Shown here in pieces: positions 13,516 to 31,605 of a stretch of DNA of 35,429 nucleotides. This stretch comes from Clostridia bacterium (GTDB lineage Bacteria; Bacillota; Clostridia; Oscillospirales; CAG-272): contig JAFTXB010000207.1 of assembly GCA_017461825.1 (NCBI GenBank), positions 1 through 35,429 on the forward strand, read 5' to 3'. The position numbers and the translations under genes are program-made. Positions within the stretch are counted from its first letter, which is position 1, and every line of letters starts with the position of its first letter. The notes under the pieces are model-generated. The model had not been told where the DNA came from and did no database searches. It saw nothing but the letters and a program-made list of their open reading frames with translations.

Positions 13516-13580
13516 GATTACCCAATATAGGCTATGAGGCTTTATGCCTTGGTAAAGAAACAGCTCAAAGGAGAAAAAAC

Positions 13581-14978: not shown

Positions 14979-14990
14979 ACACTTTTTACC

Positions 14991-15018: not shown

Positions 15019-15059
15019 AAAAAAAGACATCACCAATATACAAAGGAAAAAACCACATT

Positions 15060-15935: not shown

Positions 15936-15942
15936 GAGATAA

Positions 15943-16479: not shown

Positions 16480-16485
16480 CTGGAG

Positions 16486-16524
16486 GGCTGTCTCAATAGT
16501 GGTTTCATCCCTGTTGAGACAGCC
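16486..16524 (+). terminator. Hairpin downstream of the YgjV-like gene
   Basis: ggctgtctcaa (16486-16496) pairs with ttgagacagcc (16514-16524). The U-tail is weak. Confidence 0.4.
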
Positions 16525-16622
16525 TTGAAAAATTTAGAGTATTTTATAAATGAAATTGCAAAAACTACCGAGTTGAATCGCGAGGTTGAAATTGTTTTTT
16601 CAGAAAATTAATAGGAGCGATT

Positions 16623-18245
16623 ATGAAAATAAGATTACCCGATATTGCATATGTTTTCAATGAGGAAAAAGAGTGCCGTACAATTAAATCGGAAATAAAT
16701 GATAGCATACTCGTATATTCGATACAAAATTCTTCATTAAAAGTTTCCATCATTGATAATGGCGAGGCATTGACTTATATTGTGCTTAAGTGGTTTTTAA
16801 AGGAGGATGAAAAGCGCCATGAACCGATACGGATCCTTGGAGATGCTTGGGAGAGAGGATACGGTGATCTCGAATGGCGAGGCATCGTACAGGATAGAAG
16901 CATGCCATGGTACTGCTTGGTTTCCAATGGTAGCGATACCGAACTTGATTACACCAATCGCCATACCGAAGGCTTTGGTGTAAAGGTTCGCCCTTCCGCT
17001 TTTTGCAGTTGGCAATATCTCGGAGATGAGGTGGTACTATTCTTAGATATACGATGTGGAGCAAAGGGTGTGCTATTAAACGGGAAGACTTTGGATGTAG
17101 CCGAAGTCCTGTTTAAAGACTTTTACAATCAGTCGGCGTATCAAAGCGGATGTGATTTTTGCAAATTAATGTGTACCGATCCGATTTTTCCAAAAGAAAC
17201 GGTTTATGGGTTTAACAATTGGTATTATGCCTACGGTGTCAGTTCTGATGCCGAGATAATGGAGGACACCGAACGTTTGGTTACTTCTTGCCAGGGAACA
17301 AATGTCAAACCCTATATGGTACTTGACGACGGCTGGCAAATCAATCGCGCCGATGCACCTTGGGACAGGGGCAATTCTCGCTTTCCGGACATGAGAGCCC
17401 TTGCAGAAAAGATTAAACAAAAAGGCGCTCGCCCCGGAATTTGGATTCGCCCCCTATCCGTTAGTGGGGAATCTTGTGACATTCCTGTTCAATGGAGACT
17501 GGAGCGAGAGCCGAGATATCTCGACCCTTCCCGTCCCGAAGTTTTGAAATATGTAGCAAAATGTGTTTCGACCTTAACCGATTGGGGATATGAATTGATC
17601 AAATATGATTTTGTAACCTTTGATATTATCGGGAAATGGGGATTTTCGGGTCCCGGTGTTTTGGCAGACGGAAACTGGAGCTTTTATAATCGAAGCAAAA
17701 CAACGGCAGAGATCATCGTTGATCTGTATCGTTGTATTCGTAACGCTTCCTCAGGTGCAGTACTGATTGGATGTAATGCAATCGGTCATCTATGCGCGGG
17801 TATGGTGGAAATCAATCGAACAGGTGATGATACCAGCGGAAAAGATTGGAAACGCACGCGCAGAATGGGGATAAATACGCTTGCGTTTCGCTCCATTCAG
17901 AATCGCGCATTTTACATGGCAGATGCAGATTGTGTGCCCATTACCCCAGCGGTATCATTTCAAGTAAATCGCCATTGGTTAAAGCTACTTTCGGCAAGCG
18001 ATTCGCCACTGTTTATCAGTTGGAACCCTCTTTGTAATGATGAGAAGATTAAAAAATCCGTAAGAGATGCCTTGATTCGAAATGCAGAAGGAACCGACAA
18101 GCTGATCCCTTTGGATTGGATGGAAAACAATTGCCCTTGTAAATGGTTGTTGAACGGTGAAAAAATAACAATTTCTTGGTTTAATAAAGAGATTTCACCA
18201 ATGACATCTCGTTTTATAGAGGTTATGCCTTGGGGGACTAGATAA
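16623..18245 (+). CDS. Clan GH-D alpha-galactosidase-like glycoside hydrolase (GH36/GH27-like), cytoplasmic
   Basis: TAGGAG RBS. MVLDDGWQ...RFPDMRALAEKIKQKGARPGIWIRP matches the (beta/alpha)8 DDGW block. YELIKYDF is a K-x-D nucleophile context. RTGDDTS is a candidate acid/base region. At 540 aa it is shorter than typical GH36 enzymes. Confidence 0.6.
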   Translation: MKIRLPDIAYVFNEEKECRTIKSEINDSILVYSIQNSSLKVSIIDNGEALTYIVLKWFLKEDEKRHEPIRILGDAWERGYGDLEWRGIVQDRSMPWYCLVSNGSDTELDYTNRHTEGFGVKVRPSAFCSWQYLGDEVVLFLDIRCGAKGVLLNGKTLDVAEVLFKDFYNQSAYQSGCDFCKLMCTDPIFPKETVYGFNNWYYAYGVSSDAEIMEDTERLVTSCQGTNVKPYMVLDDGWQINRADAPWDRGNSRFPDMRALAEKIKQKGARPGIWIRPLSVSGESCDIPVQWRLEREPRYLDPSRPEVLKYVAKCVSTLTDWGYELIKYDFVTFDIIGKWGFSGPGVLADGNWSFYNRSKTTAEIIVDLYRCIRNASSGAVLIGCNAIGHLCAGMVEINRTGDDTSGKDWKRTRRMGINTLAFRSIQNRAFYMADADCVPITPAVSFQVNRHWLKLLSASDSPLFISWNPLCNDEKIKKSVRDALIRNAEGTDKLIPLDWMENNCPCKWLLNGEKITISWFNKEISPMTSRFIEVMPWGTR

Positions 18246-19007: not shown

Positions 19008-19032
19008 AGGACAAATGATAGGAGGATCTATA

Positions 19033-22000
19033 ATGAAAACATCAATGAAAAAATTAACGAGCTTGTTTGTGGCACTGATGACAGTGCTTGGCATGGTAGC
19101 CTTGGTGCTGCCAACTATACAAATTTCATCAAGTGCCGGTAACGCCACTTCGGTTACGCTGACACCAACCGAGGGAGAGCCGATTCAACTGGTGGAAGAC
19201 GTAGAAACGGCAACCTATTCATGGGTTGCGGAAACGGCAACCTTAACGCTCAACGGCTGGAGCGGGCAGAGGATCACCTCAAACGGTGATGTCTTCCTGC
19301 ACCTCAAGGGCACCAACACCATCACTATGGATCCCAATGCGACCGGCACGTCGCAGATCGGTTTGGATCTCGATTCCTGCGGAGGTACCGCAATCATAAG
19401 TGCTGACGATGGCGGCGTTTTGAACATTGAAGGAAACTTAAAAACCCAGTTTTCTGCTATTGCGGGATCGTTGTACGTTGCCAACGGAACCGTGAACATT
19501 GATGTTAGCACTACCGCCGGCGGGCAGCTGTACGGTATTGAAAGAAGCCTGAGCTTTAACGCCTCTGCCACCAAGGCGGCAGAGGTCAACGTTACCATCA
19601 AACGCACGGGTGACAGCAACAGTACGATTTACGGTGTGTATAATTCAACACGTGTAGATAGCCGTGGAAATGTCGCCATAAACGTATCCTTGACAGGTAA
19701 TGAAAATGATACGCTGATTGGTCTTGACACCCTAACCGTTTATAAGGCTGCGCCCCAGATCAAGGTCAAGCTTGAAAACGGAGCGGGCGACGCGAACTCT
19801 CGCCGTGCGGTAGAGAGTTGCGAAGGTATTTCTCTGACCGAGGGCGGTAGAGTTGAGCTCAATGGAAGAATATACAGCTATTCTCTTCCTATCTACACAA
19901 ACCCCAACACAGTGACCACAACACCCGCAGACAACGAATACGTCTGGATCGAGACGGATGGAAGCGCAATGAATTCCAGTAAATTCATTCTTTGCAATCT
20001 TGACGGAACGACCTGCTACAAGACGGTTTTTGAGTATGCGACAGAGCCGGCGGCACTGAAATGGGTTGGAGAAGGGCATTTTGAAATCCCTGCCACCGTT
20101 GTGGAGGACAATGTCTCTCTCAATTTGATGGCGGGTATCCGAGGCGCAACTTACTATACCTCTCATAATAATTATTGGAATTTTGAGGTGATCGAGGGCA
20201 CGTTGCCCGAAGGGTTGGTGCTTTCTGCTAACAGCGGCGTGCTGAACGGTCAGGTCAAGACCCCTTGCGAAGCAGGCAACGTAAAGATTCGCGTCACCGA
20301 TCGCGCGGGGACTTATTATAATACTGCCGATGACAGAAGCGTGGTATTTACCATCCCTTACGGTGCGTGTGCGGATAAGGACCGTTTCCTGACCGTGGGC
20401 GATGCCGATCCGCTGGAAATGAAGCAGGACGGCTCGGGTTCGGGATGGAGCTACGATGCTGAGACCTTGACGCTGACCTTGAACAACTATAACGGCGGTC
20501 CTATCAAGGCGGAGCGACCCTTCAATATCCATTTGACGGAAACCAATACCGTAACCCTTGACGATGCTATTCAGGATACACAATACAGAAGCTACGGTAT
20601 CTGGCTGGATACCAAGGCATCGGAGGCACTGAATATCACCGCGGACGACGGCGGTGTGCTCAATATTAAGGGCACCTCGATGACAACCGATTTTTCGCTG
20701 ATGAATGTTAACCGGGTCAATATTGTCAACGGAACGCTCAATCTGACGGCAAAATCCGATTTTTCAAACGGAACCTATAGGGTGGGTGTCGGCTTTCTCG
20801 CATCCGTTACCTTCCAAGAGAATGTTGATAAAGCCGCTGCCGTTACCGTCGATCTGGAAAATACCCACGCGACAATATCTGCAAAGCTCACCGGAAACGG
20901 AACCGACTATAACGCCGGAAATATCAATATTTATGACCGCGACAATGTGACTGTAAACGTATCCGTCAAGGGAAACGCCAATACCGAAGGGTGGGCACTC
21001 TCGATGCTGAATGCCATCAACACCAACGCCGTGGTTACCGCAGTTGCGAATAATGGCGGCAGCAACAGCAAGGACTGCCTCGCATTACGAGGTTTTAGCG
21101 GTATCGTTTTAAAAGCGGGCGGTAAGGTGGATTTGACGGGCAAGGTACAATCTTATTCCCTTTATACCGTGGCAAGCCCCAATACCGTTACCACCACTCC
21201 TGCCAACAACGGCTACTATTGGTGTGATACCGATTCTCACTACTACTACACCATGTACGAGCTACGGGATTTGTATGACCAGCCCCTTACGCACACGGTA
21301 TTTGAATACTCTGCCGAAAAAGCGCCCTTTAAGTGGACGGGTGATGGATTGATCTCCATTCCGGGCGGATCCATGGGGGATTCTGTTCAGATCGACCTGC
21401 AGGCAGCTCTCGTTGGCGCTCACGGATATTATTCAAGTGCCGGCTACTGTCAGCTTGAGATTATTGAAGGTAGCCTTCCTAAGGGCTTGAGTGTGGGTCT
21501 CTATAACCATATGATCGTTGGTACGGTAAGCGCGCCTTGCGATGCGGGCGTTGTTAAGATCCGCGCGACCGATTGCGGAGGAACCTTCTCCGATGATAGT
21601 GATGACAGAGTAATCGAGTTTGAGTTAAGTTACGGTGCCTTTACAACCAATAAGCCCGTTACCGGAATTGCTCTTGATAAGGATACCCTGACATTGGAAA
21701 ATACCGGAACCGGCACGGTAAATGTTACCGTAACCCCCTCCGACGCAGCGTATCCTTACGTGACGGGTACGCAGGTAGGCAGTACCGGAGAGGTTTCTGT
21801 CTACAATATTTCCGAGCCTTTAGAGGGTGTGAGCGTTATCACCCTGAAGGCATGGGGAACTGCCGGAGCATACGTATATGACATCAAAACCGTTGAACTT
21901 GGTCTGTCCAAGATCTTGACTGTCTACGTCAAAGAAGCAATGCCCGAGCTTTCCATTGATTACCAAGGCGAAAGACTGAGCGGGCTTCAAATTGGCAAGA

Positions 22001-25000
22001 ACTACCGCATCACTCCCGAGGGGCTTGATCCCGTTGAGTTTACTGCGGACTCTTACTACTATGCGATCCCCGAGGCATGGATGGGCAAGACGGTCAGTAT
22101 TGTTTGTCTCAATGCCGAAGAAAACTGCAACAGCCCTGCGCAGGAGCTGGTAATTCCCGAAAGACCTGCGGCTCCCACGCCCGGCAAGACCGATGCATCC
22201 GGCGCGGAGGCCAACGACGGCAGCATTACGGGCGTTGCCGACACGATGCAATACAAGCAAGAGAGCCAGGATTCCTGGTACTCGGTCTACAGTGACGCGG
22301 TGAACCATCTGGGCATTGGCACCTATCACGTCAGATATCGCTCCACCGATACTGCGTTTGCAAGTAAAACCGCAACCGTTGTCATCGGCTACGGTGAGCT
22401 TGCTTTTACCGACAACGCAACATTTGATATTCCGGGCGACGAGATCAGTACCGATGTTTCGATCAACGTCAGCATGGGTGTCAGCGGCGGCAAAAAGCCC
22501 TACACCTTTAGCATCAACGGCCCCACGTGGCTTTCGATCAACGCCACCACGGGTGTCATCAGCGGCACCCGCCCCGACAGCGAGCAGGATGCAACCACGG
22601 CAACCGTTACGGTGACCGACGGCGACAGCAACAGCAAGTCGATCACGATCAATGTGGGTGCTGTCGTTCTGCCTCACGTACACGTGTACGATCAGCAAAA
22701 GATTGAGGAAACCTATAAGAAATCCGATGCCGACTGTGAAAACCCCGCGTACTACTATTACAGCTGCGTGTGCCTCATCAGGGGCTCTGAAGCCTTTGCG
22801 CACGGCGAAAAGCTCGGTCACGATTACACCGAGCAGATTGAGGACGAGGCGCATCTGAAAACCAAGGGTGCCGACTGTCAGCACAAAAACGTTTATTGGT
22901 ACGATTGCTCGCGCTGTGCGGCAAACGCAAAGGACGATCCCGCGGCAACCGATAAGTTCTACAACGGAACGTCGGTTGGAGATCACTCCTTTGACACCGA
23001 AAACTGGGGATACCGTGGAGCCGAGGGGCATGCGCACCTTTGTACGGTAGAAAACTGCGGTGCGCACGATACTCCCGTGGCGCACACCCCCGGCGACGAG
23101 GCAACCGAGCTGGCTCCCCAGCTTTGCACGGCCTGCTCCTATGAGATCGCGCCCAAAAAGCCTCACGTGCACACCATTCAAAAGAAGAACGCTGCAACTC
23201 CCGACTGTACCAACACGGGTAACATCGCGTACTACTACTGCACGGGGCTTTGCGGCAAGTATTTCTCGGACGAGGCGGGAACACAGGAGATCGCGGATAA
23301 GACCAGCGTCATTCTTTCGGCGCTTGGACACGACTACAGCGAGAAGCTTCAAAATGAGGCGCACGTCAAGGGCGGCGGCTCCAACTGTCAGGAGCTCTAC
23401 GTCTACTGGTACAACTGCTCGCGCTGTACGGCATGCGCCAAGGACGACGCGGGTGCCGCAGATAAGTTCTATACGGGAACGCTGTACGGCAACCACGAGT
23501 ATGATCAGACCAAATTTGCCTATCGGGATGCCGAGGGGCACGCGCGTGTTTGTAAGATCGAGGGCTGCGGCGCGCACGATATGCTGCGCAATCACAACAA
23601 GGATACGTCATCCTATCGCACCGACGGAACCAACCACTGGTACGTCTGCTCCGATTGCGGCTACGAAATGGATGTTACGGCACACGTCTACACCAACGCT
23701 TGCGACACCGAATGCAACGTCTGTAGCTATACCCGATCCATTACGCACCAATATAAAGAAACGCTGACCAAGAACGCCAACAAGCATTGGTATGAGTGCT
23801 CGGTTTGCAGTGCCAAGAAGGAGGAGGCTGATCACGACTATGACCATGCCTGCGACACCACCTGCGACACCTGCGGACACACCCGTTCGATCACGCACAG
23901 CTACTCCAATGAGTGGACAAAGGATGAAAACAAGCATTGGCACGTTTGCACGGTCTGCGGCTCGAAGAAGGACGAGGCAACTCACACCCCCGGCGCGGCG
24001 GCAACCGAGACCACGCCTCAAACCTGTAATATCTGCGGATACGTGATCGCCCCCGCGACGGGACATATCACGCACACCCCTGTCGATGCATGGTCGCACA
24101 ACGAAACCCACCACTGGCACGCGTGTGTTGGATGTCTGGAGCAACAGTTTGAAAAGACAGAGCACGTCTATGACAACGCCTGCGACACCGACTGCAACGT
24201 CTGCGGATACACCCGTACCGTTACGCATCAGTACGGAGACGAATGGTCAAAGAATGAGACCAAGCATTGGCACGAATGCTCGGTCTGCGGAGCCAAAAAG
24301 GAAGAGGCGGATCACGTCTTTGACAATGCTTGCGATACTGCCTGCAACACCTGCGGCGCTACGCGCGAAACCACCCACAGCTATTCGCAAACGCTGTTTA
24401 AGAACGATGGCAAGCACTGGTACGAGTGTACCTCTTGCGGAGCAAAGAAGGATGAAGCAGATCACTCCTTTGATCATGCCTGCGATCCCTCCTGCGATCT
24501 CTGCGGCTATACACGCTCGGTATCTCACAGCTACGCGCAGGAATGGTTCAGCAATGAAACCCGACATTGGCACGCCTGCACGGTCTGCGGAGCCAAAAAG
24601 GATGAGGCGACCCACACGGCAGGAGCTGCCGCTACGGAGACAACGCCTCAGGTCTGCACGGTCTGCGGTTATATCATAGCCCCTGCCACGGGTCACACAA
24701 CTCACACCCCCGCCGATACATGGTCGAGTGATGCAACGCACCACTGGCACGAATGTACGGGCTGTCATGGTCAACAGCTTGACAAAGCAGAGCACGTCTA
24801 TGACAATTCCTGCGACACCGACTGCAACGTCTGCGGTAAAATCAGAACGGTAACCCACGATTACCGTGCGGAGTGGCAGAAAAATGAGAGCGGACATTGG
24901 CACGAATGCGCGGTCTGCTCGGCAAAGAAGGATGAGGGCGCCCACACGCCCGGTGCGGCTGCAACGGAGACAACGCCTCAGGTCTGCACGGTCTGCGGAT

Positions 25001-26049
25001 ACGTGATCGCGCCCGCAACGGGACACCTGACCTGCTCGGGCGGAATCAAGCAAAACGGGCAGTCGGCAACCTGTACCGCCGACGGCTGGAAGGATTACTA
25101 CAAATGCGAGGGCTGTGAAAAGCTCTATGAGGACGCAAATTGCAGCGTTCCGATCTCCGATCTTGCGGCATGGAAGGCGGGCAACGGAAAGCTGGCTGCC
25201 GCGCATAACCACGGCACAGCTTGGAAGTCCGATGCCAACAACCACTGGAACGAGTGCGCGTGCGGAGACAAGGCAAACGTAGCTCCCCACGCGGATGCCG
25301 ATAAAAACGGCAAGTGCGATGTTTGTGATCGCACCGTACCGATTACCGAGCCCGGCAAAGAACCCGGCACAGAACCCGGCACCGAGCCCGGCACCACGCC
25401 CGGCAACAACGGGATCAAGATCGAGAACCCCGAAAGCGGCGCGTCGGTTCAGATCCCCGAGGGCAGCAGCGCAAACGTCCCCGACGGAGCTGTATTTGAG
25501 GTGGCGGAGCTTCCCAAGACCGAGATTGCCGAGAAAACGGTCGCTCGTATCACGGAAACGGTAGAGGGCAGCGCGGAGGTGCTGGCAGTTTACGATCTCT
25601 CCCTGCTTCTGGACGGAGCCACCGTACAACCCAACGGCAAGCTTCTCGTTACGCTCCCCGCCATTGAGGGCGATTTCGACCGCATAAAGGTTCTGTATAT
25701 CGCCGATGACGGCAGCGTGGAGGAATGTGTGACCGCACTCAACGAGGACGGCACGGTTTCCTTTGTGACCGACCACTTCTCCAAATATGTGGTTGTCGGT
25801 GTAACGGACGGCAAAGAAGGCGGCGGACTTTCCACAGGCATTATTGTGCTGATTGTTATCATTGTGATCCTGATACTGAGCATCGGCGGTTTTGCGATCT
25901 GGTGGTTTGTGATCGAGAAAAAGAGCTTTTCTGATCTGGTTGAGACGGTCAAAAAGTACCTGCGTGCAGTGGGGAAAAAAGCGTCTGTAGCCGACGCTGC
26001 CGAGTTGGACGACGAGAGCCATGCGGATAGCGAATCGAACGACCAATAA
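19033..26049 (+). CDS. Giant (2338 aa) type-I membrane-anchored surface protein. Order: signal peptide, two 408-aa modules each ending in a putative Ig (He_PIG-like) domain, Big_2-like domain, further Ig-like domains, a Cys/His-rich repeat region of about 890 aa, EPGT linker, C-terminal domain, TM helix, acidic cytoplasmic tail
   Basis: ATG at 19033, 6 nt after GGAGGA. Signal peptide MKTSMKKLTSLFVALMTVLGMVALVLP. LPEGLVLSANSGVLNGQV...VKIRVTD and LPKGLSVG...VKIRATD are He_PIG-like. VTGIALDKDTLTLENTGTGTVNVTVTP is Big_2-like. TM helix GIIVLIVIIVILILSIGGFAIWWFVI, then a 45-aa tail. Confidence 0.85.
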   Translation: MKTSMKKLTSLFVALMTVLGMVALVLPTIQISSSAGNATSVTLTPTEGEPIQLVEDVETATYSWVAETATLTLNGWSGQRITSNGDVFLHLKGTNTITMDPNATGTSQIGLDLDSCGGTAIISADDGGVLNIEGNLKTQFSAIAGSLYVANGTVNIDVSTTAGGQLYGIERSLSFNASATKAAEVNVTIKRTGDSNSTIYGVYNSTRVDSRGNVAINVSLTGNENDTLIGLDTLTVYKAAPQIKVKLENGAGDANSRRAVESCEGISLTEGGRVELNGRIYSYSLPIYTNPNTVTTTPADNEYVWIETDGSAMNSSKFILCNLDGTTCYKTVFEYATEPAALKWVGEGHFEIPATVVEDNVSLNLMAGIRGATYYTSHNNYWNFEVIEGTLPEGLVLSANSGVLNGQVKTPCEAGNVKIRVTDRAGTYYNTADDRSVVFTIPYGACADKDRFLTVGDADPLEMKQDGSGSGWSYDAETLTLTLNNYNGGPIKAERPFNIHLTETNTVTLDDAIQDTQYRSYGIWLDTKASEALNITADDGGVLNIKGTSMTTDFSLMNVNRVNIVNGTLNLTAKSDFSNGTYRVGVGFLASVTFQENVDKAAAVTVDLENTHATISAKLTGNGTDYNAGNINIYDRDNVTVNVSVKGNANTEGWALSMLNAINTNAVVTAVANNGGSNSKDCLALRGFSGIVLKAGGKVDLTGKVQSYSLYTVASPNTVTTTPANNGYYWCDTDSHYYYTMYELRDLYDQPLTHTVFEYSAEKAPFKWTGDGLISIPGGSMGDSVQIDLQAALVGAHGYYSSAGYCQLEIIEGSLPKGLSVGLYNHMIVGTVSAPCDAGVVKIRATDCGGTFSDDSDDRVIEFELSYGAFTTNKPVTGIALDKDTLTLENTGTGTVNVTVTPSDAAYPYVTGTQVGSTGEVSVYNISEPLEGVSVITLKAWGTAGAYVYDIKTVELGLSKILTVYVKEAMPELSIDYQGERLSGLQIGKNYRITPEGLDPVEFTADSYYYAIPEAWMGKTVSIVCLNAEENCNSPAQELVIPERPAAPTPGKTDASGAEANDGSITGVADTMQYKQESQDSWYSVYSDAVNHLGIGTYHVRYRSTDTAFASKTATVVIGYGELAFTDNATFDIPGDEISTDVSINVSMGVSGGKKPYTFSINGPTWLSINATTGVISGTRPDSEQDATTATVTVTDGDSNSKSITINVGAVVLPHVHVYDQQKIEETYKKSDADCENPAYYYYSCVCLIRGSEAFAHGEKLGHDYTEQIEDEAHLKTKGADCQHKNVYWYDCSRCAANAKDDPAATDKFYNGTSVGDHSFDTENWGYRGAEGHAHLCTVENCGAHDTPVAHTPGDEATELAPQLCTACSYEIAPKKPHVHTIQKKNAATPDCTNTGNIAYYYCTGLCGKYFSDEAGTQEIADKTSVILSALGHDYSEKLQNEAHVKGGGSNCQELYVYWYNCSRCTACAKDDAGAADKFYTGTLYGNHEYDQTKFAYRDAEGHARVCKIEGCGAHDMLRNHNKDTSSYRTDGTNHWYVCSDCGYEMDVTAHVYTNACDTECNVCSYTRSITHQYKETLTKNANKHWYECSVCSAKKEEADHDYDHACDTTCDTCGHTRSITHSYSNEWTKDENKHWHVCTVCGSKKDEATHTPGAAATETTPQTCNICGYVIAPATGHITHTPVDAWSHNETHHWHACVGCLEQQFEKTEHVYDNACDTDCNVCGYTRTVTHQYGDEWSKNETKHWHECSVCGAKKEEADHVFDNACDTACNTCGATRETTHSYSQTLFKNDGKHWYECTSCGAKKDEADHSFDHACDPSCDLCGYTRSVSHSYAQEWFSNETRHWHACTVCGAKKDEATHTAGAAATETTPQVCTVCGYIIAPATGHTTHTPADTWSSDATHHWHECTGCHGQQLDKAEHVYDNSCDTDCNVCGKIRTVTHDYRAEWQKNESGHWHECAVCSAKKDEGAHTPGAAATETTPQVCTVCGYVIAPATGHLTCSGGIKQNGQSATCTADGWKDYYKCEGCEKLYEDANCSVPISDLAAWKAGNGKLAAAHNHGTAWKSDANNHWNECACGDKANVAPHADADKNGKCDVCDRTVPITEPGKEPGTEPGTEPGTTPGNNGIKIENPESGASVQIPEGSSANVPDGAVFEVAELPKTEIAEKTVARITETVEGSAEVLAVYDLSLLLDGATVQPNGKLLVTLPAIEGDFDRIKVLYIADDGSVEECVTALNEDGTVSFVTDHFSKYVVVGVTDGKEGGGLSTGIIVLIVIIVILILSIGGFAIWWFVIEKKSFSDLVETVKKYLRAVGKKASVADAAELDDESHADSESNDQ
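19215..21640 (+). repeat. Tandem duplication of a module of about 1225 nt (408 aa) inside the giant gene
   Basis: Collinear blocks in copy 1 / copy 2: TLTLNGWSG / TLTLNNYNG; ADDGGVLNIEG / ADDGGVLNIKG; NGTVNIDV / NGTLNLTA; KAAEVNVT / KAAAVTVD; NPNTVTTTPADN / SPNTVTTTPANN; VFEYATEPAALKW / VFEYSAEKAPFKW; EVIEGTLPEGL / EIIEGSLPKGL; NVKIRVTD / VVKIRATD. Confidence 0.8.
22672..23682 (+). repeat. Two tandem 489-nt (163-aa) Cys/His-rich units
   Basis: Both copies start PHVH (22672 and 23161). They share LGHDY(T/S)E.(I/L).(D/N)EAH.K..G..CQ...VYWY.CSRC.A.AKDD.(A/G)A.DKFY.GT..G.H..D...(W/F).YR.AEGHA..C..E.CGAHD. Confidence 0.8.
23683..25030 (+). repeat. Six 150-nt (50-aa) Cys/His repeats interspersed with three linker repeats
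   Basis: Units start at 23683, 23833, 24163, 24313, 24463 and 24793. Consensus: H-x-(Y/F)-D-x-(A/S)-C-D-x-x-C-(N/D)-x-C-(G/S)-x-x-R-x-x-(T/S)-H-x-Y-x(5)-K-(N/D)-x(2)-K-H-W-(H/Y)-x-C-x-x-C-(G/S)-x-K-K-(E/D)-E-(A/G). Two full 180-nt linkers at 23983 and 24613 share HT(P/A)GAAATETTPQ.C..CGY.IAPATGH followed by a THHWH.C.GC segment. A third, truncated copy at 24943 shares only the first part. Confidence 0.85.
25351..25407 (+). repeat. About 4.75 copies of the 12-nt repeat cccggcaNNgaN, encoding (E/K)PGT
   Basis: cccggcaaagaa cccggcacagaa cccggcaccgag cccggcaccacg cccggcaac. Confidence 0.85.
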
Positions 26050-26234: not shown

Positions 26235-27479
26235 TTATATTGTTTGCGGACGTTTGATGGATTCGCGGTATTCCTTTGGGGTCTTACCTGTCAGCCTTTT
26301 AAATGTTTTGGAAAAATACTGAACGTCCATAATGCCGCAGTGGAGTGCAACTGTTTGGATCTGCAAATTGGTGGTGGCAAGCAGATGTGAGGCGTGCTTG
26401 ATCCGTTTCTCGCGAATGTATTCCGAAACGGTTTTTCCGGTTTCCTTTTTGAAGATCGTGGAAAGATATCCCGAGCTGATGCTCTGTTGGCGGGCGAGCG
26501 CGTTTAAGGATAGGCTTGCGGACAGGTCGGAATCGATGAGCAGGATCGTTTTTTGCACGACCTGTGAAAATTGTTTGAGGGAGTGATTCCGCACCAAGCG
26601 GCAATAGGCGCGGAAAATGGAGCACATCAGGTCGGTGTTTTCCGAAAGAGAGGGGAGCTGTTCGATCTGCATGGCGATCTTGGAGGAAACGCGGTCGAGA
26701 TAAACCGGATGGACACCGCCTTGCTCTGCCGCCTTTCGCAGGAGGGTATTCATAATGATGCCGTAATTTTTGGCGTTGCGCAGTGGATCGGCAACTCGTT
26801 TTTCAAATGCGTTTTGCGAAAATGCGGCGCGCAACTGTTTTTCTTTATGAATTTGTCCCAGCTCTACTGCTTTTATCAGCTCATTTTCAAACACATAGCG
26901 CTCTTCCATTGCTTTGACATTCATGAGAGTTTCATGGAAGGAGTCGTTTTGCGAGATGTCGTTGATGGGCGATGCGGGGATCTGATTTTCCTGATTTTGA
27001 TCGATGATAAAAAAGGACGGGGTTCTCCAAAGACGTTCGCAAAATGCGTCCAACATCATAAACAAGTGATCACGGTCGGTGAGAACCGAAATTCCAAAGT
27101 AGTACTCTTCCAGATATTTCTGTTGTCTCCGCGGAACGCGGGTTGCCTCGCCGATCTCAAGGATCCGCTCGGGCGAAGGTGTTGACGTCAGATAGGGACC
27201 GATGCACAGAGCCTTTGCGGACTGCTCATCGGGTAACAGAAGCGCGATATAGGAAAAACCGAACGCATCGGTTATCTTGTACATGGTGCGCGAAGCGAAT
27301 GTGTGCGGAAAACGGCGAGGCAAAGCCGACCGAGCCTCGTCGGTCATTCCCAAAGCACCTTCAATGCCAAGGCTTGCGATTCGGTTTTCCAATTCGTTGG
27401 GCTCTTCGATCCATGTATGCACACGGCTTTTGCGAAACGTTTCGCAGAGAAGTTGCAGCTCACTGTTATAAAAGCTCAT
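26235..27479 (-). CDS. AraC-family transcriptional regulator with a long (about 300 aa) non-cupin N-terminal domain
   Basis: The start is set at MSFYNSELQ (ATG at 27479 after GAGAGGTGAG). C-terminal AraC HTH: LSLNALARQQSISSGYLSTIFKKETGKTVSEYIREKRIKHASHLLATTNLQIQTVALHCGIMDVQYFSKTFKRLTGKTPKEYR. Divergent from the GPH transporter gene. Confidence 0.8.
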   Translation of the reverse strand: MSFYNSELQLLCETFRKSRVHTWIEEPNELENRIASLGIEGALGMTDEARSALPRRFPHTFASRTMYKITDAFGFSYIALLLPDEQSAKALCIGPYLTSTPSPERILEIGEATRVPRRQQKYLEEYYFGISVLTDRDHLFMMLDAFCERLWRTPSFFIIDQNQENQIPASPINDISQNDSFHETLMNVKAMEERYVFENELIKAVELGQIHKEKQLRAAFSQNAFEKRVADPLRNAKNYGIIMNTLLRKAAEQGGVHPVYLDRVSSKIAMQIEQLPSLSENTDLMCSIFRAYCRLVRNHSLKQFSQVVQKTILLIDSDLSASLSLNALARQQSISSGYLSTIFKKETGKTVSEYIREKRIKHASHLLATTNLQIQTVALHCGIMDVQYFSKTFKRLTGKTPKEYRESIKRPQTI

Positions 27480-27756
27480 GATCTCACCTCTCGGGCCTCT
27501 TCCAAAAGACAAAGTATTGTCGGAATGACGGCACAAAAATTCCAATGCTTATCTAATATTGTATCACGGTTTTTGTTAAAATGCAACATGCTTTTTTATA
27601 AATATATGAAAAAAATACAAAAACAGATGAAAATAATACTCACGTATATTCTAAAAATGATTTATACTAAAGGTAGCTATGCTATTGCCGAATTTTTTTG
27701 GTTTTAGTTTGCAGTCCCATTGCGAAAAAATAAAACAAAGAAAAGAGGAAAACAGT

Positions 27757-29193
27757 ATGAAGAAAGAAACACAGCTTGCCGCAAACGGTAAGCGCAAATT
27801 TGGCATGAGAGACTGCCTTGCCTATGCGGCGGGCGATCTTGGATGTAACATGAGCTTTGCGCTCAAGAGCACGATGTCGATATTCTGGACACAGTTTATG
27901 GGCATGGATCTTTGGTATGCGCTGCTTCTCATCGTGGTTCAGGTTTGGGACGCGATCAACGACCCCCTGATCGGATCGATAATTGACTCGGATCGACGTA
28001 AGTATAAGAGAAACAAATTTTTAACTTACATATGGGTTGGCTCTTTGGGGCTTATTGTTGGCGGTGCGTGTTGTTTCCTCCCGTTCCCGAATGCAGCCGT
28101 TTGGGCAAAGGCGATCATCTTTATCGCCGGCTATGTGGTATGGGATGCCTTCTATACGGTTGCCAATGTTCCTTACGGCTCGCTGCTCGGACTGATCTCC
28201 AATGACGTAAAGGACAGAGCGTCTCTGTCTGCATGGCGTTCGGTCGGCTCGATCTTTGGCAACATGCTTCCTATGGTCATTCTCCCCTGTATCATTTACG
28301 ATAAGGACAACAACCTGATCGGTGAGCGTGTTTTCATTGCGGCACTGATCATGGGTGTTCTCGGCTTTATTTGCTTCCAGTTTATGATCCGCAATACCGA
28401 GATCCGCGTAGAGCAGGAGATTACTCTGCAAGAAGAAAAGCCCAAATTCAATGTATTCAGAGCGTTTGTCAACTTTATGAAAAACCGTCCCGCCGTGGGA
28501 GCCACGGTTGCGGCAATGGGTATGTTTATCGGTATGCAGGGCGCGGCAACCGCGGTGACCGTTATTTTCCAGTCATATTTTAAAAACGTACAGATCTCGG
28601 GAATCGTCCAGCTGTTTGCCATGATACCCATCGTATGCTTTACACCTCTGGCAAGAAAAATGGTGGCGAGATTTGGCAAAAAGGAGCTTGCAACCTTTGG
28701 TTCGATCTGCTCGATCGTTGCGGCTGCGGCACTCTTTATTGTAACCCCCGATAATACCGGTCTTGATCTGATTCTTTACATTGTCAGCCAGCTGATATTC
28801 TCTTTGGGTCTTGGTATTTACTCCACGGTCTCCTGGGCAATGATGGGAGATGCCATTGATTACAATGAATGGAAGACCGGCAACCGCGAGGAGGGAACTG
28901 TTTATTCTTTGCATTCCTTCTTCAGAAAGCTGGCGCAGGGAATCGGCCCCGCATTGGTTCTTGTAATCATGGTTGCGCTGGGTTACGAAGGCGCAAACGA
29001 GGGCAATCAGGTTTGGGAGGTTGCCGTTCGGATGAGATATCTGGTAGCGGGTACGTATCTGTTTTCCGCGATCCTTCAGTTTGTAGGTCTTGGATTGGTC
29101 TATAACCTTGATAAGAAGACGCTTGAACACATGAATGTTGAGCTTGGACGTGAAGTTGCAACATCCTCTGAGGACACTTCCGATCCCGTATAA
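27757..29193 (+). CDS. GPH-family (glycoside-pentoside-hexuronide:cation) sugar symporter, MFS_2-type
   Basis: The start is set at MKKETQLAANGKRKFGMRDCLAYAAGDLGCNM. Typical GPH N-terminus: G-x-R-D-x-x-x-Y-x-x-G-D-x-G, then VWDAINDPLIGSIIDS. About 12 hydrophobic segments. Confidence 0.8.
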   Translation: MKKETQLAANGKRKFGMRDCLAYAAGDLGCNMSFALKSTMSIFWTQFMGMDLWYALLLIVVQVWDAINDPLIGSIIDSDRRKYKRNKFLTYIWVGSLGLIVGGACCFLPFPNAAVWAKAIIFIAGYVVWDAFYTVANVPYGSLLGLISNDVKDRASLSAWRSVGSIFGNMLPMVILPCIIYDKDNNLIGERVFIAALIMGVLGFICFQFMIRNTEIRVEQEITLQEEKPKFNVFRAFVNFMKNRPAVGATVAAMGMFIGMQGAATAVTVIFQSYFKNVQISGIVQLFAMIPIVCFTPLARKMVARFGKKELATFGSICSIVAAAALFIVTPDNTGLDLILYIVSQLIFSLGLGIYSTVSWAMMGDAIDYNEWKTGNREEGTVYSLHSFFRKLAQGIGPALVLVIMVALGYEGANEGNQVWEVAVRMRYLVAGTYLFSAILQFVGLGLVYNLDKKTLEHMNVELGREVATSSEDTSDPV

Positions 29194-29328: not shown

Positions 29329-31605
29329 ATGAGACAGGTTATTAATTTAAACAAGGATTGGCTCTTTGTAAAGGATACGACCGATATTGCGGCACGTGTC
29401 GGCGAGCAAGTTGATCTTCCACATACATGGAATGCCGCAGACGGACATGACGGCGGCAACGATTATTTCAGAGGCCCCTGCCTCTACGTCAAAACGGTAA
29501 AGCGCGCGGAGCTTCCCGCGGCGGACCGTTACTATCTCGAGATCCGTGGCGCAAACTCGTCGGCAGACGTTTACGTTGGCGGAACGAAGCTTGCCCATCA
29601 CGACGGCGGTTATTCCACCTGGCGCGTCGATCTCACCGAGAGCCTCTCCGACGAGACCGAGCTTGCCATTGTGGTGGATAACTCTCCCAACGATACCGTC
29701 TATCCCCAGATGGCGGATTTCACCTTCTACGGAGGACTCTACCGCGATGTTAACATCATTGCGGTGAACAACACCCACTTTGATCTCGATTATTACGGCG
29801 GAAACGGTCTGAAGATCACCCCCGTAGTCGAGGGCAAGGACGCAAAGGTTGAGGTTGAGGTATATATCAAGGATCTCACTGAGGGGCAGTCGATTCGCTA
29901 TACGATCACCGATGCGGCAGGCGAGGCGGTTGCGGGCGGCACCGGAACCTATACCAAGCAGACCTTTGATATCAACGGCGTTCACCTTTGGAACGGCCGC
30001 AAGGATCCCTATCTTTACACTTGCACGGCAGAGATCGTAGAGAATGGCACAGTGCTCGACAATATATCCGCGCGCTTCGGCTGTCGCAGCTACAAGATCG
30101 ATCCCAACAACGGCTTTATCCTCAACGGCGAGGAGTACCCTTTGCGCGGCGTATCGCGCCATCAGGACAGACTGGGCGTGGGCAACGCGCTCCTGCCCGA
30201 GCACCACAGAGAGGATATTGACCTCATTATGGAGGTTGGTGCCACCACCATTCGTCTGGCGCACTACCAGCACGATCAGTATTTCTACGATCTGTGTGAC
30301 GAAAAGGGACTTGTTATCTGGGCGGAGATCCCCTATATCTCCAAGCATATGCCGGGTGGACGCGAGAATACGGTCTCGCAGATGAAGGAGCTCATCACGC
30401 AGAATTATAATCACCCCTGTATTGTGGTCTGGGGTCTTTCCAACGAGATCTCGATCGGCGGCTCGGACGACGACCTGCTTGAGAATCACCGCATCCTCAA
30501 CGATCTGGTGCACGAGATGGACAAGACGCGTCTGACCACCATTGCGGCGGTTTCGATGTGCAAGATGGACGATCCCTATCTCCTGATCCCCGACGTTGTT
30601 TCCTACAACCACTATTTCGGTTGGTACGGCGGCGACACGAGCATGAACGGCCCTTGGTTTGATAAATTCCACGAGACGCACCCCAACATTCCGATCGGCT
30701 GCTCCGAGTACGGCTGTGAGGCGCTCAACTGGCACACCAGCGATCCCAAGCAGGGCGACTATACCGAGGAATATCAGGCATACTACCACGAGGAGCTGAT
30801 CAAGCAGCTCTTCACCCGCAAATATATGTGGGCAACCCACGTTTGGAACATGTTTGATTTTGGCGCCGACGCGAGAGCCGAGGGCGGTGAGAACGGACAG
30901 AACCACAAGGGGCTTGTCACCATGGACAGAAAGTACAAGAAGGATTCCTTCTATGCTTACAAGGCATGGCTGGTCTCCCCCGAGGACGATCCCTTCGTAC
31001 ACCTGTGCGGCAAGCGTTATATCGACCGCGTTGAGGAGGTTACCAAGGTCACGGTGTATTCCAACCTGCCCGAGGTCGAGCTGTTTGTCAACGGCAAGAG
31101 CGTTGGTAAAAAGACGGCACCCGATCATTTCTTCTATTTCGACGTTAAAAACGAGGGCGAGAGCACGATCGTTGCAAAAGCGGGAGCGCTTTCCGACGAG
31201 GGCAAGATCCGCAAGGTTGCCGAGCGCAATATGGACTACGTTCTGCGCGAGGTGGGCGCTGTGCTTAACTGGTTTGACGTGACCGAGATCGAGGGCAGAT
31301 ATTCGCTCAATGACAAGATCTCCGATATCATGAAGTCCAAGCGCGGCAAGCTTTGGTTCCTGTCTATGGGGCTGAAGATCAAAAAGAAGATGGATGCCAA
31401 CAAGAAGGGCAAGGACAAGGGAGAGAAGAAGTCGGGCGGCTTTGAGGTCGATCTCAAGGCGGACGGAGGACTGATGCAGATGATGGGCGGCTTTACCGTT
31501 CTGCGTCTGACGAGCATGATGGGCATGATGAACGTCTCCTTTACCAAGGAAGAGCTTCTCAAGATGAACAAAAAGCTCAACCGCATCCGCAAGCCGAAAA
31601 ATTAA
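29329..31605 (+). CDS. GH2-family glycosidase (beta-galactosidase/beta-glucuronidase-like) with a Lys/Met-rich C-terminal extension
   Basis: NLNKDWLFVKD, LPHTWNAADG, GGYSTWRVDLT, LRGVSRHQD, TIRLAHYQHD, VVWGLSNE (acid/base N-E) and CSEYGCEA (nucleophile E) are GH2 blocks. No signal peptide. Confidence 0.85.
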   Translation: MRQVINLNKDWLFVKDTTDIAARVGEQVDLPHTWNAADGHDGGNDYFRGPCLYVKTVKRAELPAADRYYLEIRGANSSADVYVGGTKLAHHDGGYSTWRVDLTESLSDETELAIVVDNSPNDTVYPQMADFTFYGGLYRDVNIIAVNNTHFDLDYYGGNGLKITPVVEGKDAKVEVEVYIKDLTEGQSIRYTITDAAGEAVAGGTGTYTKQTFDINGVHLWNGRKDPYLYTCTAEIVENGTVLDNISARFGCRSYKIDPNNGFILNGEEYPLRGVSRHQDRLGVGNALLPEHHREDIDLIMEVGATTIRLAHYQHDQYFYDLCDEKGLVIWAEIPYISKHMPGGRENTVSQMKELITQNYNHPCIVVWGLSNEISIGGSDDDLLENHRILNDLVHEMDKTRLTTIAAVSMCKMDDPYLLIPDVVSYNHYFGWYGGDTSMNGPWFDKFHETHPNIPIGCSEYGCEALNWHTSDPKQGDYTEEYQAYYHEELIKQLFTRKYMWATHVWNMFDFGADARAEGGENGQNHKGLVTMDRKYKKDSFYAYKAWLVSPEDDPFVHLCGKRYIDRVEEVTKVTVYSNLPEVELFVNGKSVGKKTAPDHFFYFDVKNEGESTIVAKAGALSDEGKIRKVAERNMDYVLREVGAVLNWFDVTEIEGRYSLNDKISDIMKSKRGKLWFLSMGLKIKKKMDANKKGKDKGEKKSGGFEVDLKADGGLMQMMGGFTVLRLTSMMGMMNVSFTKEELLKMNKKLNRIRKPKN

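What the first reader, a model, noticed from the sequence alone, without database searches (positions are those of the whole stretch)
22672..25340. Extracellular array of Cys/His-rich 50-aa repeats (H-x-Y-D-x-A-C-D-x2-C-x2-C-G ... K-H-W-H-x-C-x2-C-G-x-K-K) - candidate novel metal-binding repeat family
About 890 aa of the ectodomain consist of nested repeats: two 163-aa units, six 50-aa units, and three copies of the HTPGAAATETTPQ.C..CGY.IAPATGH linker, two of them extended by a THHWH.C.GC segment. Each 50-aa unit has 5 Cys (C-x3-C-x2-C plus C-x2-C) and 4-5 invariant His, including an H-W-H dyad immediately before the C-x2-C. An odd Cys count with invariant His argues for tandem Cys/His metal (zinc-knuckle-like) sites rather than a purely disulfide scaffold. 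Beads-on-a-string Zn sites on the outside of a Gram-positive cell would be unusual. The invariant aromatic/His positions (H-x-Y, H-W-H) could also form a ligand-binding face. I cannot assign these repeats to any domain family from memory.
Basis: partly seen in the sequence, partly recalled or inferred. Interest (0 to 1): 0.75.

Follow-up and report, generated by a model that had tools for sequence, protein, structure and literature searches.

The report
Zinc-stapled stalk of a surface protein
About 890 residues of a 2344-residue surface protein from a gut-type anaerobe are a chain of about 28 tiny Cys/His modules, most likely stapled end to end by zinc into a stiff stalk; the module family is very large and uncurated, and has so far been noticed only as a predicted zinc domain in one IgA protease.

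Summary
Residues 1220-2109 of the 2344-aa ORF (19015-26049, +) hold 70 Cys and 65 His, arranged as six 50-aa units, two ~163-aa units and HTPG linkers.

No Pfam or NCBIfam model covers the repeats, and Foldseek finds no solved fold. The family is nevertheless very large: 7915 clusters at 50% identity, in exported proteins of gut Clostridia.

The region is homologous (E=9.5e-14) to ZBD1/ZBD2 (also called CTD2/CTD4) of the Thomasclavelia ramosa IgA protease. Two 2025 papers predicted inter-sheet Zn(Cys/His) sites there, and SAXS on one of the domains (CTD2) showed an extended rod.

Across homologues exactly eight Cys/His positions per unit are conserved (seven invariant, H35 in 92%). That is enough for two tetrahedral sites.

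Conditional conservation supports junction-spanning sites. The "distal" ligand (C7, or the equivalent Cys of another module type) is kept when another module follows and is lost in terminal modules.

Proteins with the same head carry 0 to 28 knuckles, or InlB-type repeats, between head and membrane anchor. The array therefore behaves as an interchangeable spacer.

Verdict: a new variant of a recently noticed kind. Metal binding is inferred, not shown.

The parts
19015..26049 (+). Gene for a 2344-aa exported, membrane-anchored surface protein (head, Cys/His stalk, linker, TM anchor)
   Evidence: Single ORF. Homologues of the head and of the stalk exist.
19015..19140 (+). N-terminal signal peptide region (aa 1-42; the true start may be M7)
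   Evidence: Basic residues followed by a hydrophobic run (KKLTSLFVALMTVLGMVALVLP). Read from the sequence by a heuristic; no predictor was run.
19120..21639 (+). Head: two paralogous ~420-aa beta-rich modules (aa 36-470 and 459-875), each ending in a cadherin/He_PIG-like Ig domain
   Evidence: Internal BLAST gives 37% identity. AF2 of module 1 has pLDDT 91.6. Foldseek matches only cadherin/Ig-like folds, at E>=2e-3.
22435..22653 (+). He_PIG putative Ig domain (aa 1141-1213), immediately before the array
   Evidence: Pfam PF05345, E=1.7e-12.
22672..25341 (+). Cys/His module array (aa 1220-2109): 28 C-x(1-4)-C knuckles, so up to ~28 predicted Zn sites
   Evidence: Homology to IgA protease ZBD1/2 at E=9.5e-14.
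22672..23163 (+). First ~163-aa super-unit (module types I, I', S-like, III)
   Evidence: 46% identical to the second super-unit, E=2e-37.
23164..23655 (+). Second ~163-aa super-unit. Its first module aligns with subdomain I of IgA protease ZBD1.
   Evidence: domain 1: query residues 162-221 against 9qa6_A residues 849-907.
23683..23832 (+). 50-aa unit 1 (aa 1557-1606). Inferred site I: H1541, H1557, C1567, C1570. Inferred site II: C1563, H1578, C1595, C1598.
23833..23982 (+). 50-aa unit 2 (aa 1607-1656). Inferred site I: H1591, H1607, C1617, C1620. Inferred site II: C1613, H1628, C1645, C1648.
23983..24162 (+). HTPG linker module plus THHWH sheet module (aa 1657-1716). It has no C7-type Cys; an H-x2-H pair (H1684, H1687) precedes the next knuckle.
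24163..24312 (+). 50-aa unit 3 (aa 1717-1766). Inferred site I: H1700, H1717, C1727, C1730. Inferred site II: C1723, H1738, C1755, C1758.
   Evidence: Modelled by AF2.
24313..24462 (+). 50-aa unit 4 (aa 1767-1816). Inferred site I: H1751, H1767, C1777, C1780. Inferred site II: C1773, H1788, C1805, C1808.
   Evidence: Modelled by AF2.
24463..24612 (+). 50-aa unit 5 (aa 1817-1866). Inferred site I: H1801, H1817, C1827, C1830. Inferred site II: C1823, H1838, C1855, C1858.
24613..24792 (+). Second HTAG linker module plus THHWH sheet module (aa 1867-1926)
   Evidence: 70% aa identity to aa 1657-1716.
24793..24942 (+). 50-aa unit 6 (aa 1927-1976). Inferred site I: H1910, H1927, C1937, C1940. Inferred site II: C1933, H1948, C1965, C1968.
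24943..25341 (+). Third HTPG linker and terminal, diverged modules (aa 1977-2109; knuckles at C1991/94, C2031/34, C2081/83, C2101/04)
   Evidence: Residues ~2052-2093 align with IgA protease ZBD2 (domain 3).
25345..25405 (+). (E/K)PGT-rich flexible linker encoded by a 12-nt x 5 tandem repeat
   Evidence: translation.
25405..25809 (+). Membrane-proximal Cys-poor domain (aa 2131-2265), unassigned
   Evidence: No Pfam or NCBIfam hit; sequence.
25819..25914 (+). C-terminal transmembrane helix (aa 2269-2300)
   Evidence: A 32-residue hydrophobic run followed by EKK...KK.
25915..26049 (+). Cytoplasmic tail, basic then acidic (aa 2301-2344), and stop codon

Best explanation
The region is a stalk made of about 28 very small modules. 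It sits between an adhesin-like head and a C-terminal membrane anchor, on the outer side of the membrane of an anaerobic Clostridia-type bacterium.

Each 50-aa unit is two modules.
- K module (unit positions 1-22): a zinc-knuckle hairpin.
- S module (positions 22-50): a three-stranded antiparallel sheet with a C-x2-C knuckle between strands 2 and 3.

The modules have almost no hydrophobic core. I infer that they are held end to end by one tetrahedral Zn site at every junction. Each site uses three sources of ligands:
- the knuckle of the downstream module;
- the His in the connecting segment;
- one 'distal' ligand at the far end of the upstream module. This is H35 in S modules, C7 in K modules, and the first Cys in the longer T/I modules.

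Per unit this gives site I = {H35 of the previous sheet, H1, C11, C14} and site II = {C7, H22, C39, C42}.

The result would be a stiff, extended, length-tunable rod, probably tens of nm long. It would hold the head away from the membrane and through the wall, as proposed for CTD2/CTD4 of the T. ramosa IgA protease.

Shown here: the repeats, their conservation, the homology, the secondary structure, the conditional conservation, and stalk interchangeability.

Inferred: zinc as the metal, the exact ligand sets, and rigidity.
For: 1. Composition and repeats are real.
2. Across 158 distinct units the conserved Cys/His are H1, C7, C11, C14, H22, C39 and C42 (99-100%) plus H35 (92%). That is eight ligands, enough for two four-ligand sites. 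H37 is in only 72%.
3. AF2 of aa 1698-1831 (pLDDT 88.8) gives strands at unit positions 24-30, 34-39 and 45-50. The C39-x2-C42 knuckle lies between strands 2 and 3. A bridge 10<->17 flanks the C11-x2-C14 knuckle. H35 and C39 lie four residues apart on one strand, so they cannot share a metal. H35 and H1' lie at the opposite end of the sheet from H22, C39 and C42.
4. Conditional conservation in T modules: the first Cys is present in 241/264 modules followed by another module and in 0/50 terminal ones (50 distinct proteins; Fisher p=1.5e-40).
5. Conditional conservation in K modules: C7 is present in 1370/1446 internal modules and 9/41 terminal ones (p=6.6e-31). Of the 76 internal modules without C7, 30 carry a substitute Cys: 16 just before H22 and 14 at positions 4-6. 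Only 1/1370 modules with C7 has an extra Cys before H22.
6. Cys and His occupy the same 'distal' role in different module types. A disulfide cannot explain that.
7. Homology to IgA protease ZBD1/2: E=9.5e-14 for the sequence and 2.7e-6 for the profile. The literature on those domains predicts 2His+2Cys or 3Cys+1His sites at subdomain interfaces and reports no disulfides (PMC12237041). SAXS of CTD2 fits a fully extended rod of end-to-end sheets (PMC12415215).
8. Spacer behaviour: proteins with the same head (46-66% identity) carry 28, 25, 16, 13, 11, 2 or 0 knuckles. The 0- and 2-knuckle versions have Flg_new/InlB B-repeats instead. All sit before the same kind of TM anchor.
9. Context is extracellular. 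Partner domains are LRR_5, cohesin, dockerin, choline-binding, LysM, SH3_3 and LytR. Of 252 homologues, 207 have a signal-like N-terminus and 153 a TM-like C-terminus.
10. The hosts are gut anaerobes: Oscillospiraceae, Lachnospiraceae and Christensenellaceae.
Against: - No metal has been measured, here or for the IgA protease domains.
- No coordinates were available from the AF2 job. The ligand sets rest on strand topology and covariation, not on measured distances.
- The counts come from related sequences and from regular-expression definitions of modules, so the p-values overstate independence.
- 46 internal K modules lack C7 and have no obvious substitute.
- 9 terminal K modules keep C7.
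- PMC12237041 assigns three Cys plus one His to one site (site 8) of ZBD2. That may not follow my rule.
- At the DNA level the units are only 56-75% identical. The array therefore lacks the near-identical repeats of canonical Periscope Proteins.
- Conserved exposed aromatics (Y3, Y24, W28, W36) could mean an added binding role.
Confidence: 0.7

Rival explanations
1. The array's main job is metal handling rather than spacing. About 28 Cys/His sites per molecule on the cell surface would capture, buffer or sense Zn (or Ni, Co, Cu or Fe). An alternative form: the stalk stiffens or collapses according to Zn availability or redox state in the gut.
For: High site density: 28 knuckles in 890 aa. The authors of PMC12415215 raise possible regulation by environmental zinc. 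Some proteins have hundreds of such Cys/His.
Against: The ligand sets appear fully saturated (4 of 4 protein ligands), which is typical of structural sites with very slow exchange. The array is interchangeable with metal-free InlB-type repeats behind the same head. The array always sits between a functional head and an anchor.
Confidence: 0.12
2. The modules are ligand-binding repeats. The conserved aromatic/His face (Y3, Y24, W28, W36, H37) of each single-layer sheet would bind a polymer such as peptidoglycan, a wall polysaccharide or a host glycan, in the manner of choline-binding or CBM repeats.
For: W28 is in 82%, W36 in 91%, and Y/F at positions 3 and 24 in >90% of units. Single-layer sheets expose both faces. 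The neighbouring genes are glycan-utilisation genes.
Against: Aromatics are also what small coreless sheets need for stability and for packing against the metal sites. K-only arrays (21-aa period) and S-only arrays both exist, so no one face is universal. The array is replaceable by unrelated repeats. In the IgA protease the domains are dispensable for substrate cleavage (PMC12237041).
Confidence: 0.1
3. The array is a disulfide-bonded, EGF-like cysteine scaffold with no metal.
For: Extracellular Cys-rich repeats in many organisms are disulfide-bonded.
Against: There are five Cys per unit, an odd number. Three His are as conserved as the Cys. His substitutes for Cys at the distal position in S modules. 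The hosts are strict gut anaerobes. No disulfides were seen or predicted in the homologous IgA protease despite its 24 Cys (PMC12237041).
Confidence: 0.04
4. The array is an extracellular redox wire: rubredoxin-like Fe sites, or c-type haem attached at CxxCH motifs.
For: CxxCG knuckles give weak sub-threshold Pfam hits to rubredoxin-like models. There is one CxxCH motif at C1914-H1918.
Against: The sites are Cys2His2 or Cys3His, not Cys4. His follows the knuckle (position 43) in only 16% of units. One site per ~25-30 aa module implies metal-to-metal distances too long for efficient hopping (geometric inference).
Confidence: 0.02

Closest known systems
ZBD1/ZBD2 (= CTD2/CTD4) of the Thomasclavelia ramosa M64 IgA protease (UniProt Q9AES2; chain sequence in PDB 9qa6)
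   Same: Detectable sequence homology (E=9.5e-14). Shared S-type module (H-x-Y-x3-W-x2-D-x3-H-W-H-x-C-x(1-2)-C-G) and type I module (C-x9-Y-Y-x-C-x2-C ... L-G-H). Small sheets joined by predicted Cys/His Zn sites at their interfaces. Position between the functional domains and the cell anchor. No PDB fold match.
   Different: The IgA protease has two short domains (129 and 70 aa; 3 and 2 predicted sites) separated by a beta-barrel. Here ~28 modules form one continuous 890-aa array. The K module (H-x-Y-D-N-x-C-D-x2-C-N-x-C-G-x2-R-x3-H) that makes up half of each 50-aa unit is not detectably present in the protease. The head is an adhesin-like protein, not a protease. The anchor is a TM helix, not SPxTG.
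Periscope Proteins and fibrillar-adhesin stalks (SasG/Aap G5-E, Rib, InlB B-repeat/Flg_new)
   Same: A repetitive, elongated spacer between the anchor and the functional head. The number of repeats varies between relatives. Single-layer sheets with little hydrophobic core, as in G5. The array is directly interchangeable with Flg_new repeats behind the same head.
   Different: The repeats are not near-identical in DNA (56-75%). Stabilisation is by intramolecular Cys/His metal sites. In Aap, by contrast, Zn bridges two protomers through His, Asp and Glu.
Zinc ribbons and zinc knuckles (TFIIS/RPB9 C-terminal ribbon, IF2-beta)
   Same: A three-stranded antiparallel sheet with a CxxC(G) knuckle in a hairpin. 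Sub-threshold Pfam hit to Zn_ribbon_RPB9 (18.4 bits against a 25.2-bit cutoff) and weak Foldseek hits (RPA12, RPB9, 1k81; E>0.8).
   Different: A classical ribbon closes one site with two knuckles of the same domain. Here each knuckle is completed by ligands from the linker and from the preceding module. The ligand sets are mixed His/Cys. The location is extracellular.
Tandem C2H2 zinc fingers of eukaryotes
   Same: A beads-on-a-string arrangement of ~25-30-aa Cys2His2 modules. Weak profile hits to Gfi-1, ZBTB24 and others (E=0.1-5).
   Different: No beta-beta-alpha fold: the AF2 model has no helix. The ligand spacing differs. The sites lie between modules rather than within them. The hits are not significant.

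Membership tests
IgA-protease-type Zn-stapled sheet domains (ZBD1/2 = CTD2/4) | Sequence homology to ZBD1/ZBD2 | tested here: met
   phmmer of aa 1220-2108 against 9qa6_A gives E=9.5e-14 in three segments. The profile of alignment A1 gives E=2.7e-6.
IgA-protease-type Zn-stapled sheet domains (ZBD1/2 = CTD2/4) | Built of small antiparallel beta-sheets without a sandwich core | tested here: met
   The AF2 model (pLDDT 88.8) has three-stranded sheets of 6-7 residues per strand plus a knuckle hairpin, and no helices.
IgA-protease-type Zn-stapled sheet domains (ZBD1/2 = CTD2/4) | Tetrahedral Cys/His sites at the interfaces between successive sheets | tested here: inconclusive
   Supported indirectly by strand topology and by loss of the distal ligand in terminal modules. 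No coordinates were available to measure distances.
IgA-protease-type Zn-stapled sheet domains (ZBD1/2 = CTD2/4) | Zinc actually bound; extended rod in solution | not testable with these tools
   Needs ICP-MS, EXAFS and SAXS. For the protease only the rod shape of CTD2 is experimental (PMC12415215).
Canonical Periscope Protein | Tandem repeats nearly identical in DNA, giving length variation by recombination | tested here: not met
   TRF finds no array in 22672-25341. The units are 56-75% identical in nt. Length does vary between homologues.
Classical zinc ribbon (e.g. Pfam Zn_ribbon_RPB9) | Match above the curated threshold; two knuckles of one domain form one site | tested here: not met
   Best Pfam score is 18.4 bits against a cutoff of 25.2. 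Foldseek E>0.8. The PF27618 Zn_ribbon_GTF2H2 hit on homologues is only 'faint'.
C2H2 zinc finger (PF00096) | beta-beta-alpha fold with C-x2-4-C-x12-H-x3-5-H | tested here: not met
   Pfam E=1.9. No helix in the model. PDB zinc-finger hits have E>=0.12.
Multihaem cytochrome c | Conserved CxxCH haem-attachment motifs | tested here: not met
   There is one CxxCH in the array. His follows the knuckle in only 16% of units.
Disulfide-rich EGF-like repeat | Even number of conserved Cys, no conserved His | tested here: not met
   Five conserved Cys and three conserved His per unit.

The most novel reading that the evidence does not exclude
The array belongs to a very large, unnamed superfamily of extracellular 'zinc-stapled' modules. 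These are combined by a simple grammar: knuckle, linker His, and a distal ligand donated by the previous module. Gut Clostridia would use them as their main stalk-building material. Because every junction depends on one metal ion bound by thiolates, stalk stiffness, and so the display height of adhesins, cohesins and enzymes, would respond to host zinc withholding (calprotectin) or to oxidants. That would make it a switchable surface architecture rather than a passive spacer.
Probability: 0.15. Interest if true: 0.8.

Novelty: new variant of a known kind. Interest (0 to 1): 0.55.

Why it matters
If the model holds, three things follow.

1. Scale. A family with thousands of members (7915 clusters at 50% identity) has no Pfam or NCBIfam model and no experimental structure. 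It is fused to BspA-type LRRs, cohesins, dockerins and proteases in gut Clostridia. A curated model would annotate a large block of "hypothetical" surface proteins.

2. A design principle. Rods would be built from coreless mini-sheets joined by one inter-module Zn(Cys/His) site per junction. This differs from both disulfide-based extracellular repeats and intracellular zinc fingers. It is plausible only in reducing habitats.

3. A testable link. Host zinc limitation or oxidative stress could alter the surface architecture of commensal anaerobes.

The conditional-conservation rule found here gives concrete mutants to test: C7, H35 and the first Cys of T modules.

Tried and rejected
- Pfam and NCBIfam scans of the whole protein, of sub-regions, of two units alone and of 46 representatives gave nothing above threshold for the repeats.
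- The precomputed PF27618 hit on six homologues turned out to be a 'faint' hit to Zn_ribbon_GTF2H2.
- Foldseek of the two-unit model against the PDB found nothing at E<0.4.
- An exact-sequence look-up of the protein found it is not on record.
The scan was repeated with a single sequence. The best identity was about 50%, so the source organism was not identified beyond Clostridia-like gut anaerobes.
- An HMM-column test of H35 against H1' co-occurrence was confounded by truncated local alignments. I replaced it with pattern-based tests.
- The terminal-versus-internal test for S modules was uninformative, because S modules are almost never terminal.
- Rejected readings: multihaem cytochrome (CxxCH not conserved), Rieske or rubredoxin wire, classical C2H2 finger, and an H22/H35/C39/C42 intra-sheet site (H35 and C39 are four residues apart on one strand).
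- The head's function is unresolved. AF2 is confident, but only cadherin-like Ig matches appear.
- No numerical Dmax for CTD2 appears in the main text of PMC12415215. My length estimate of tens of nm is only a geometric guess.
Full report
**What is there**

The finding lies inside one long ORF, 19015..26049 on the + strand, 2344 aa. The protein begins with a signal-peptide-like segment. It ends with a 32-residue hydrophobic helix (aa 2269-2300) followed by a basic then acidic tail. Everything in between should therefore be outside the membrane.

Residues 1220-2109 (nt 22672-25341) contain 70 Cys and 65 His, 7.9% and 7.3%. The preceding 1219 residues have 1.1% and 0.9%.

- The six 50-aa units start at aa 1557, 1607, 1717, 1767, 1817 and 1927. 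An HMM built from them scores each at E~1e-30.
- The same HMM hits the two 'linker + THHWH' segments at E~8e-8, so these are diverged relatives of the unit.
- The two ~163-aa units are 46% identical over 127 aa (E=2e-37).
- The units are old duplications: 46-72% aa and 56-75% nt identity, and Tandem Repeats Finder reports nothing in the array.

**No curated family, but a very large one**

Pfam finds only He_PIG, just upstream of the array (aa 1141-1213), and nothing for the repeats. NCBIfam finds nothing relevant either. Sub-regions give only sub-threshold zinc-ribbon or rubredoxin noise. A newer Pfam accession attached to a few homologues (PF27618) is a 'faint' Zn_ribbon_GTF2H2 hit.

A word-indexed search with aa 1543-1982 found 1266 proteins at E<1e-5. 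An exhaustive profile search of 1.84 billion 50%-identity representatives found 7915 at E<=1e-3, 3482 at E<=1e-10 and 910 at E<=1e-30. Arrays reach 58 matched stretches, in proteins of 4.4-6.7 thousand residues.

Partner domains are those of surface proteins: BspA-type LRR_5, LRR_8, cohesin, dockerin, Flg_new, choline-binding repeats, LysM, SH3_3, LytR and papain-like protease.

By a crude heuristic, 207 of 252 homologues have a signal-like N-terminus and 153 a TM-like C-terminus.

Genomes carrying relatives are gut anaerobes. They include MAGs of Oscillospiraceae, Ruminococcaceae, Faecousia, Lachnospiraceae and Christensenellaceae. Cultured carriers include Gemmiger formicilis, Roseburia intestinalis, Ruminococcus intestinalis, Blautia and Fusicatenibacter. 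The best identity is about 50%, so the source species itself is not among the GTDB representatives searched.

**Link to published work**

A profile of the units hits one PDB chain sequence, 9qa6_A, the Thomasclavelia ramosa IgA protease (E=2.7e-6). The whole array hits it at E=9.5e-14 in three segments.

These segments are the domains called ZBD1/ZBD2 in PMC12237041 and CTD2/CTD4 in PMC12415215. They were not resolved experimentally; the models stop at residue 876.

- PMC12415215 shows by SAXS that isolated CTD2 is a fully extended rod of sheets placed end to end. It proposes 'metal-associated periscope domains' that project the protease from the cell.

My Foldseek search of the two-unit model likewise finds no solved fold (best E=0.49).

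**Anatomy of the 50-aa unit**

Across 158 distinct units from 120 homologues the invariant or near-invariant positions are H1, C7 (99%), D8, C11, C14, R18 (99%), H22, C39 and C42. H35 is in 92% and W36 in 91%. H37 is in only 72%. That gives eight conserved potential ligands per unit, enough for two four-coordinate sites.

AF2 with a 54-row alignment (pLDDT 88.8) gives the following for each unit:
- a three-stranded antiparallel sheet, at unit positions 24-30, 34-39 and 45-50, with the C39-x2-C42 knuckle between strands 2 and 3;
- a small hairpin, with a bridge between positions 10 and 17 around the C11-x2-C14 knuckle.

I call these the S module and the K module.

No coordinates are returned by the tool, so I reasoned from topology. 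H35 and C39 are four residues apart on one strand and cannot share a metal. H22, C39 and C42 cluster at one end of the sheet. H35 and the His after strand 3 (H1 of the next unit) cluster at the other end.

The simplest complete assignment is site I = {H35 of the previous sheet, H1, C11, C14} and site II = {C7, H22, C39, C42}. The residues for all six units are listed.

**A test from natural variation**

If each junction site takes one 'distal' ligand from the upstream module, that ligand should be dispensable when nothing follows.

| Module type | Distal ligand | Present when another module follows | Present when terminal | Fisher p |
|---|---|---|---|---|
| T (…C-x3-G-x5-C-x2-C…) | first Cys | 241/264 | 0/50 (50 distinct proteins) | 1.5e-40 |
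| K | C7 | 1370/1446 | 9/41 | 6.6e-31 |

- Most of the 23 internal T-pattern matches without the first Cys appear to be S modules caught by the pattern, with a His near the H35 position (examples).
- Terminal K modules keep H1, D8, C11, C14 and R18 (they were selected for these) but commonly also lack H22 (examples).
- Of the 76 internal K modules without C7, 16 have a new Cys just before H22 and 14 have a Cys shifted to positions 4-6.
- Only 1 of 1370 modules with C7 has an extra Cys before H22.

S-only arrays (P0157) and K-only 21-aa arrays (P0024, P0068, P0005) follow the same bookkeeping of one knuckle plus two further ligands per junction.

Cys and His fill the same role in different module types. 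This argues for metal ligation and against disulfides.

Caveats: the sequences are related, the module definitions are regular expressions, and 46 internal K modules lack any obvious substitute.

**What the array does**

The head (aa 36-1219) has only 17 homologues in 5.8 billion sequences.

| Protein | Knuckles between head and anchor |
|---|---|
| This window | 28 |
| P0135 | 25 (sequence ends without a TM anchor) |
| P0261 | 16 |
| P0253, P0258, P0259 | 13 |
| P0260 | 11 |
| P0255 | 2, plus Flg_new repeats |
| P0254 | 0, with Flg_new/InlB B-repeats instead |

Apart from P0135, each of these ends in the same kind of TM anchor. The Cys/His array therefore behaves as an interchangeable, length-variable spacer. 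This matches the periscope proposal for the IgA protease.

With 28 knuckles the array would carry up to about 28 metal ions. By rough geometry it would span tens of nanometres; this is inference only.

The head consists of two paralogous ~420-aa beta-rich modules. AF2 is confident (pLDDT 91.6), but only their cadherin/He_PIG-like Ig part finds PDB neighbours, at E>=2e-3. Its function is unknown; it looks adhesin-like.

**Rivals**

- A primary metal-buffering or metal-sensing role, or a Zn/redox-switchable stalk, cannot be excluded. It is the most interesting open reading.
- A polymer-binding role for the conserved aromatic faces is also possible.
- A disulfide scaffold, a haem or iron-sulfur wire, and classical zinc fingers are disfavoured by the tests above.

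**Verdict**

Its core inference of tandem Cys/His metal sites outside the cell is supported indirectly.

The claim of a wholly novel family is only partly right. The family is uncurated and structurally unsolved, but two 2025 papers described short versions of it as predicted zinc domains and stalk elements.

New here are:
- the size of the family;
- the K module and the 50-aa S+K unit;
- the module grammar with junction-spanning sites, backed by conditional conservation;
- the evidence that the array is an exchangeable spacer.

Metal content, ligand geometry and rigidity still need experiments.

Noticed in passing
window 25345-25405: A 12-nt unit repeated 5.1 times (83% matches) encodes the (E/K)PGT linker between the Cys/His array and the membrane-proximal domain. 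It is the only true DNA tandem repeat in the stalk region.
   Followed up: partly
window 19120-21639 (aa 36-875): The head is two paralogous ~420-aa modules (37% identical). The AF2 model is confident (pLDDT 91.6). Outside the cadherin-like Ig part it has no PDB neighbour, and it has only 17 homologues in 5.8 billion proteins. It may be a new adhesin or enzyme fold.
   Followed up: partly
window 22001-26000: G+C rises to 0.56-0.57, against 0.37-0.46 in the first 20 kb. AT skew is +0.17 to +0.18. This probably reflects the amino-acid and codon make-up of the array (52 of 65 His are CAC and 52 of 70 Cys are TGC; the region also looks rich in Thr, Ala, Asp and Glu) rather than foreign origin. I did not test this.
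   Followed up: no
window 5517-18245: A run of same-strand ORFs of 400-640 aa has almost no Pfam match. The exceptions are a sub-threshold BNR_2 hit (7491-8711) and a GLUG motif (13503-14978). They may be further surface proteins encoded upstream of the big gene.
   Followed up: no
window 1239-4424; 26235-27545 (-); 27679-29193; 29329-31605: Glycan-utilisation context: GH38 alpha-mannosidase, an AraC-type regulator, an MFS_2 sugar transporter and a GH2 glycosidase flank the surface-protein gene.
   Followed up: partly
window 22216-22386 (aa 1068-1124): A short match (E=2.4e-9, far below the family cutoff) to the C-terminal end of NCBIfam NF045980, 'MAG6410 family transglutaminase-related lipoprotein'. 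It suggests a small shared domain of unknown role.
   Followed up: no
related proteins P0024, P0068, P0005 and P0157: Other 'grammars' of the same modules exist. P0024, P0068 and P0005 have pure 21-aa K-module arrays (H-x5-C-x3-C-x2-C-x7). P0157 (5219 aa, 346 Cys, 480 His) has pure S-module arrays in which one His serves as both H1' and H22.
   Followed up: partly
related proteins P0121-P0123 and P0169: Giant proteins of 4464-6716 aa carry 366-484 Cys and have 29-43 matched stretches to the two-unit profile.
   Followed up: no
window aa 1474, 1280, 1450, 1351, 1521 (within 22672-23655): The junction bookkeeping leaves a few Cys/His unassigned: the third Cys of CSRCTAC (C1474), the His of the EAH motifs (H1280, H1450) and the His of the CGAHD motifs (H1351, H1521).
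   Followed up: no
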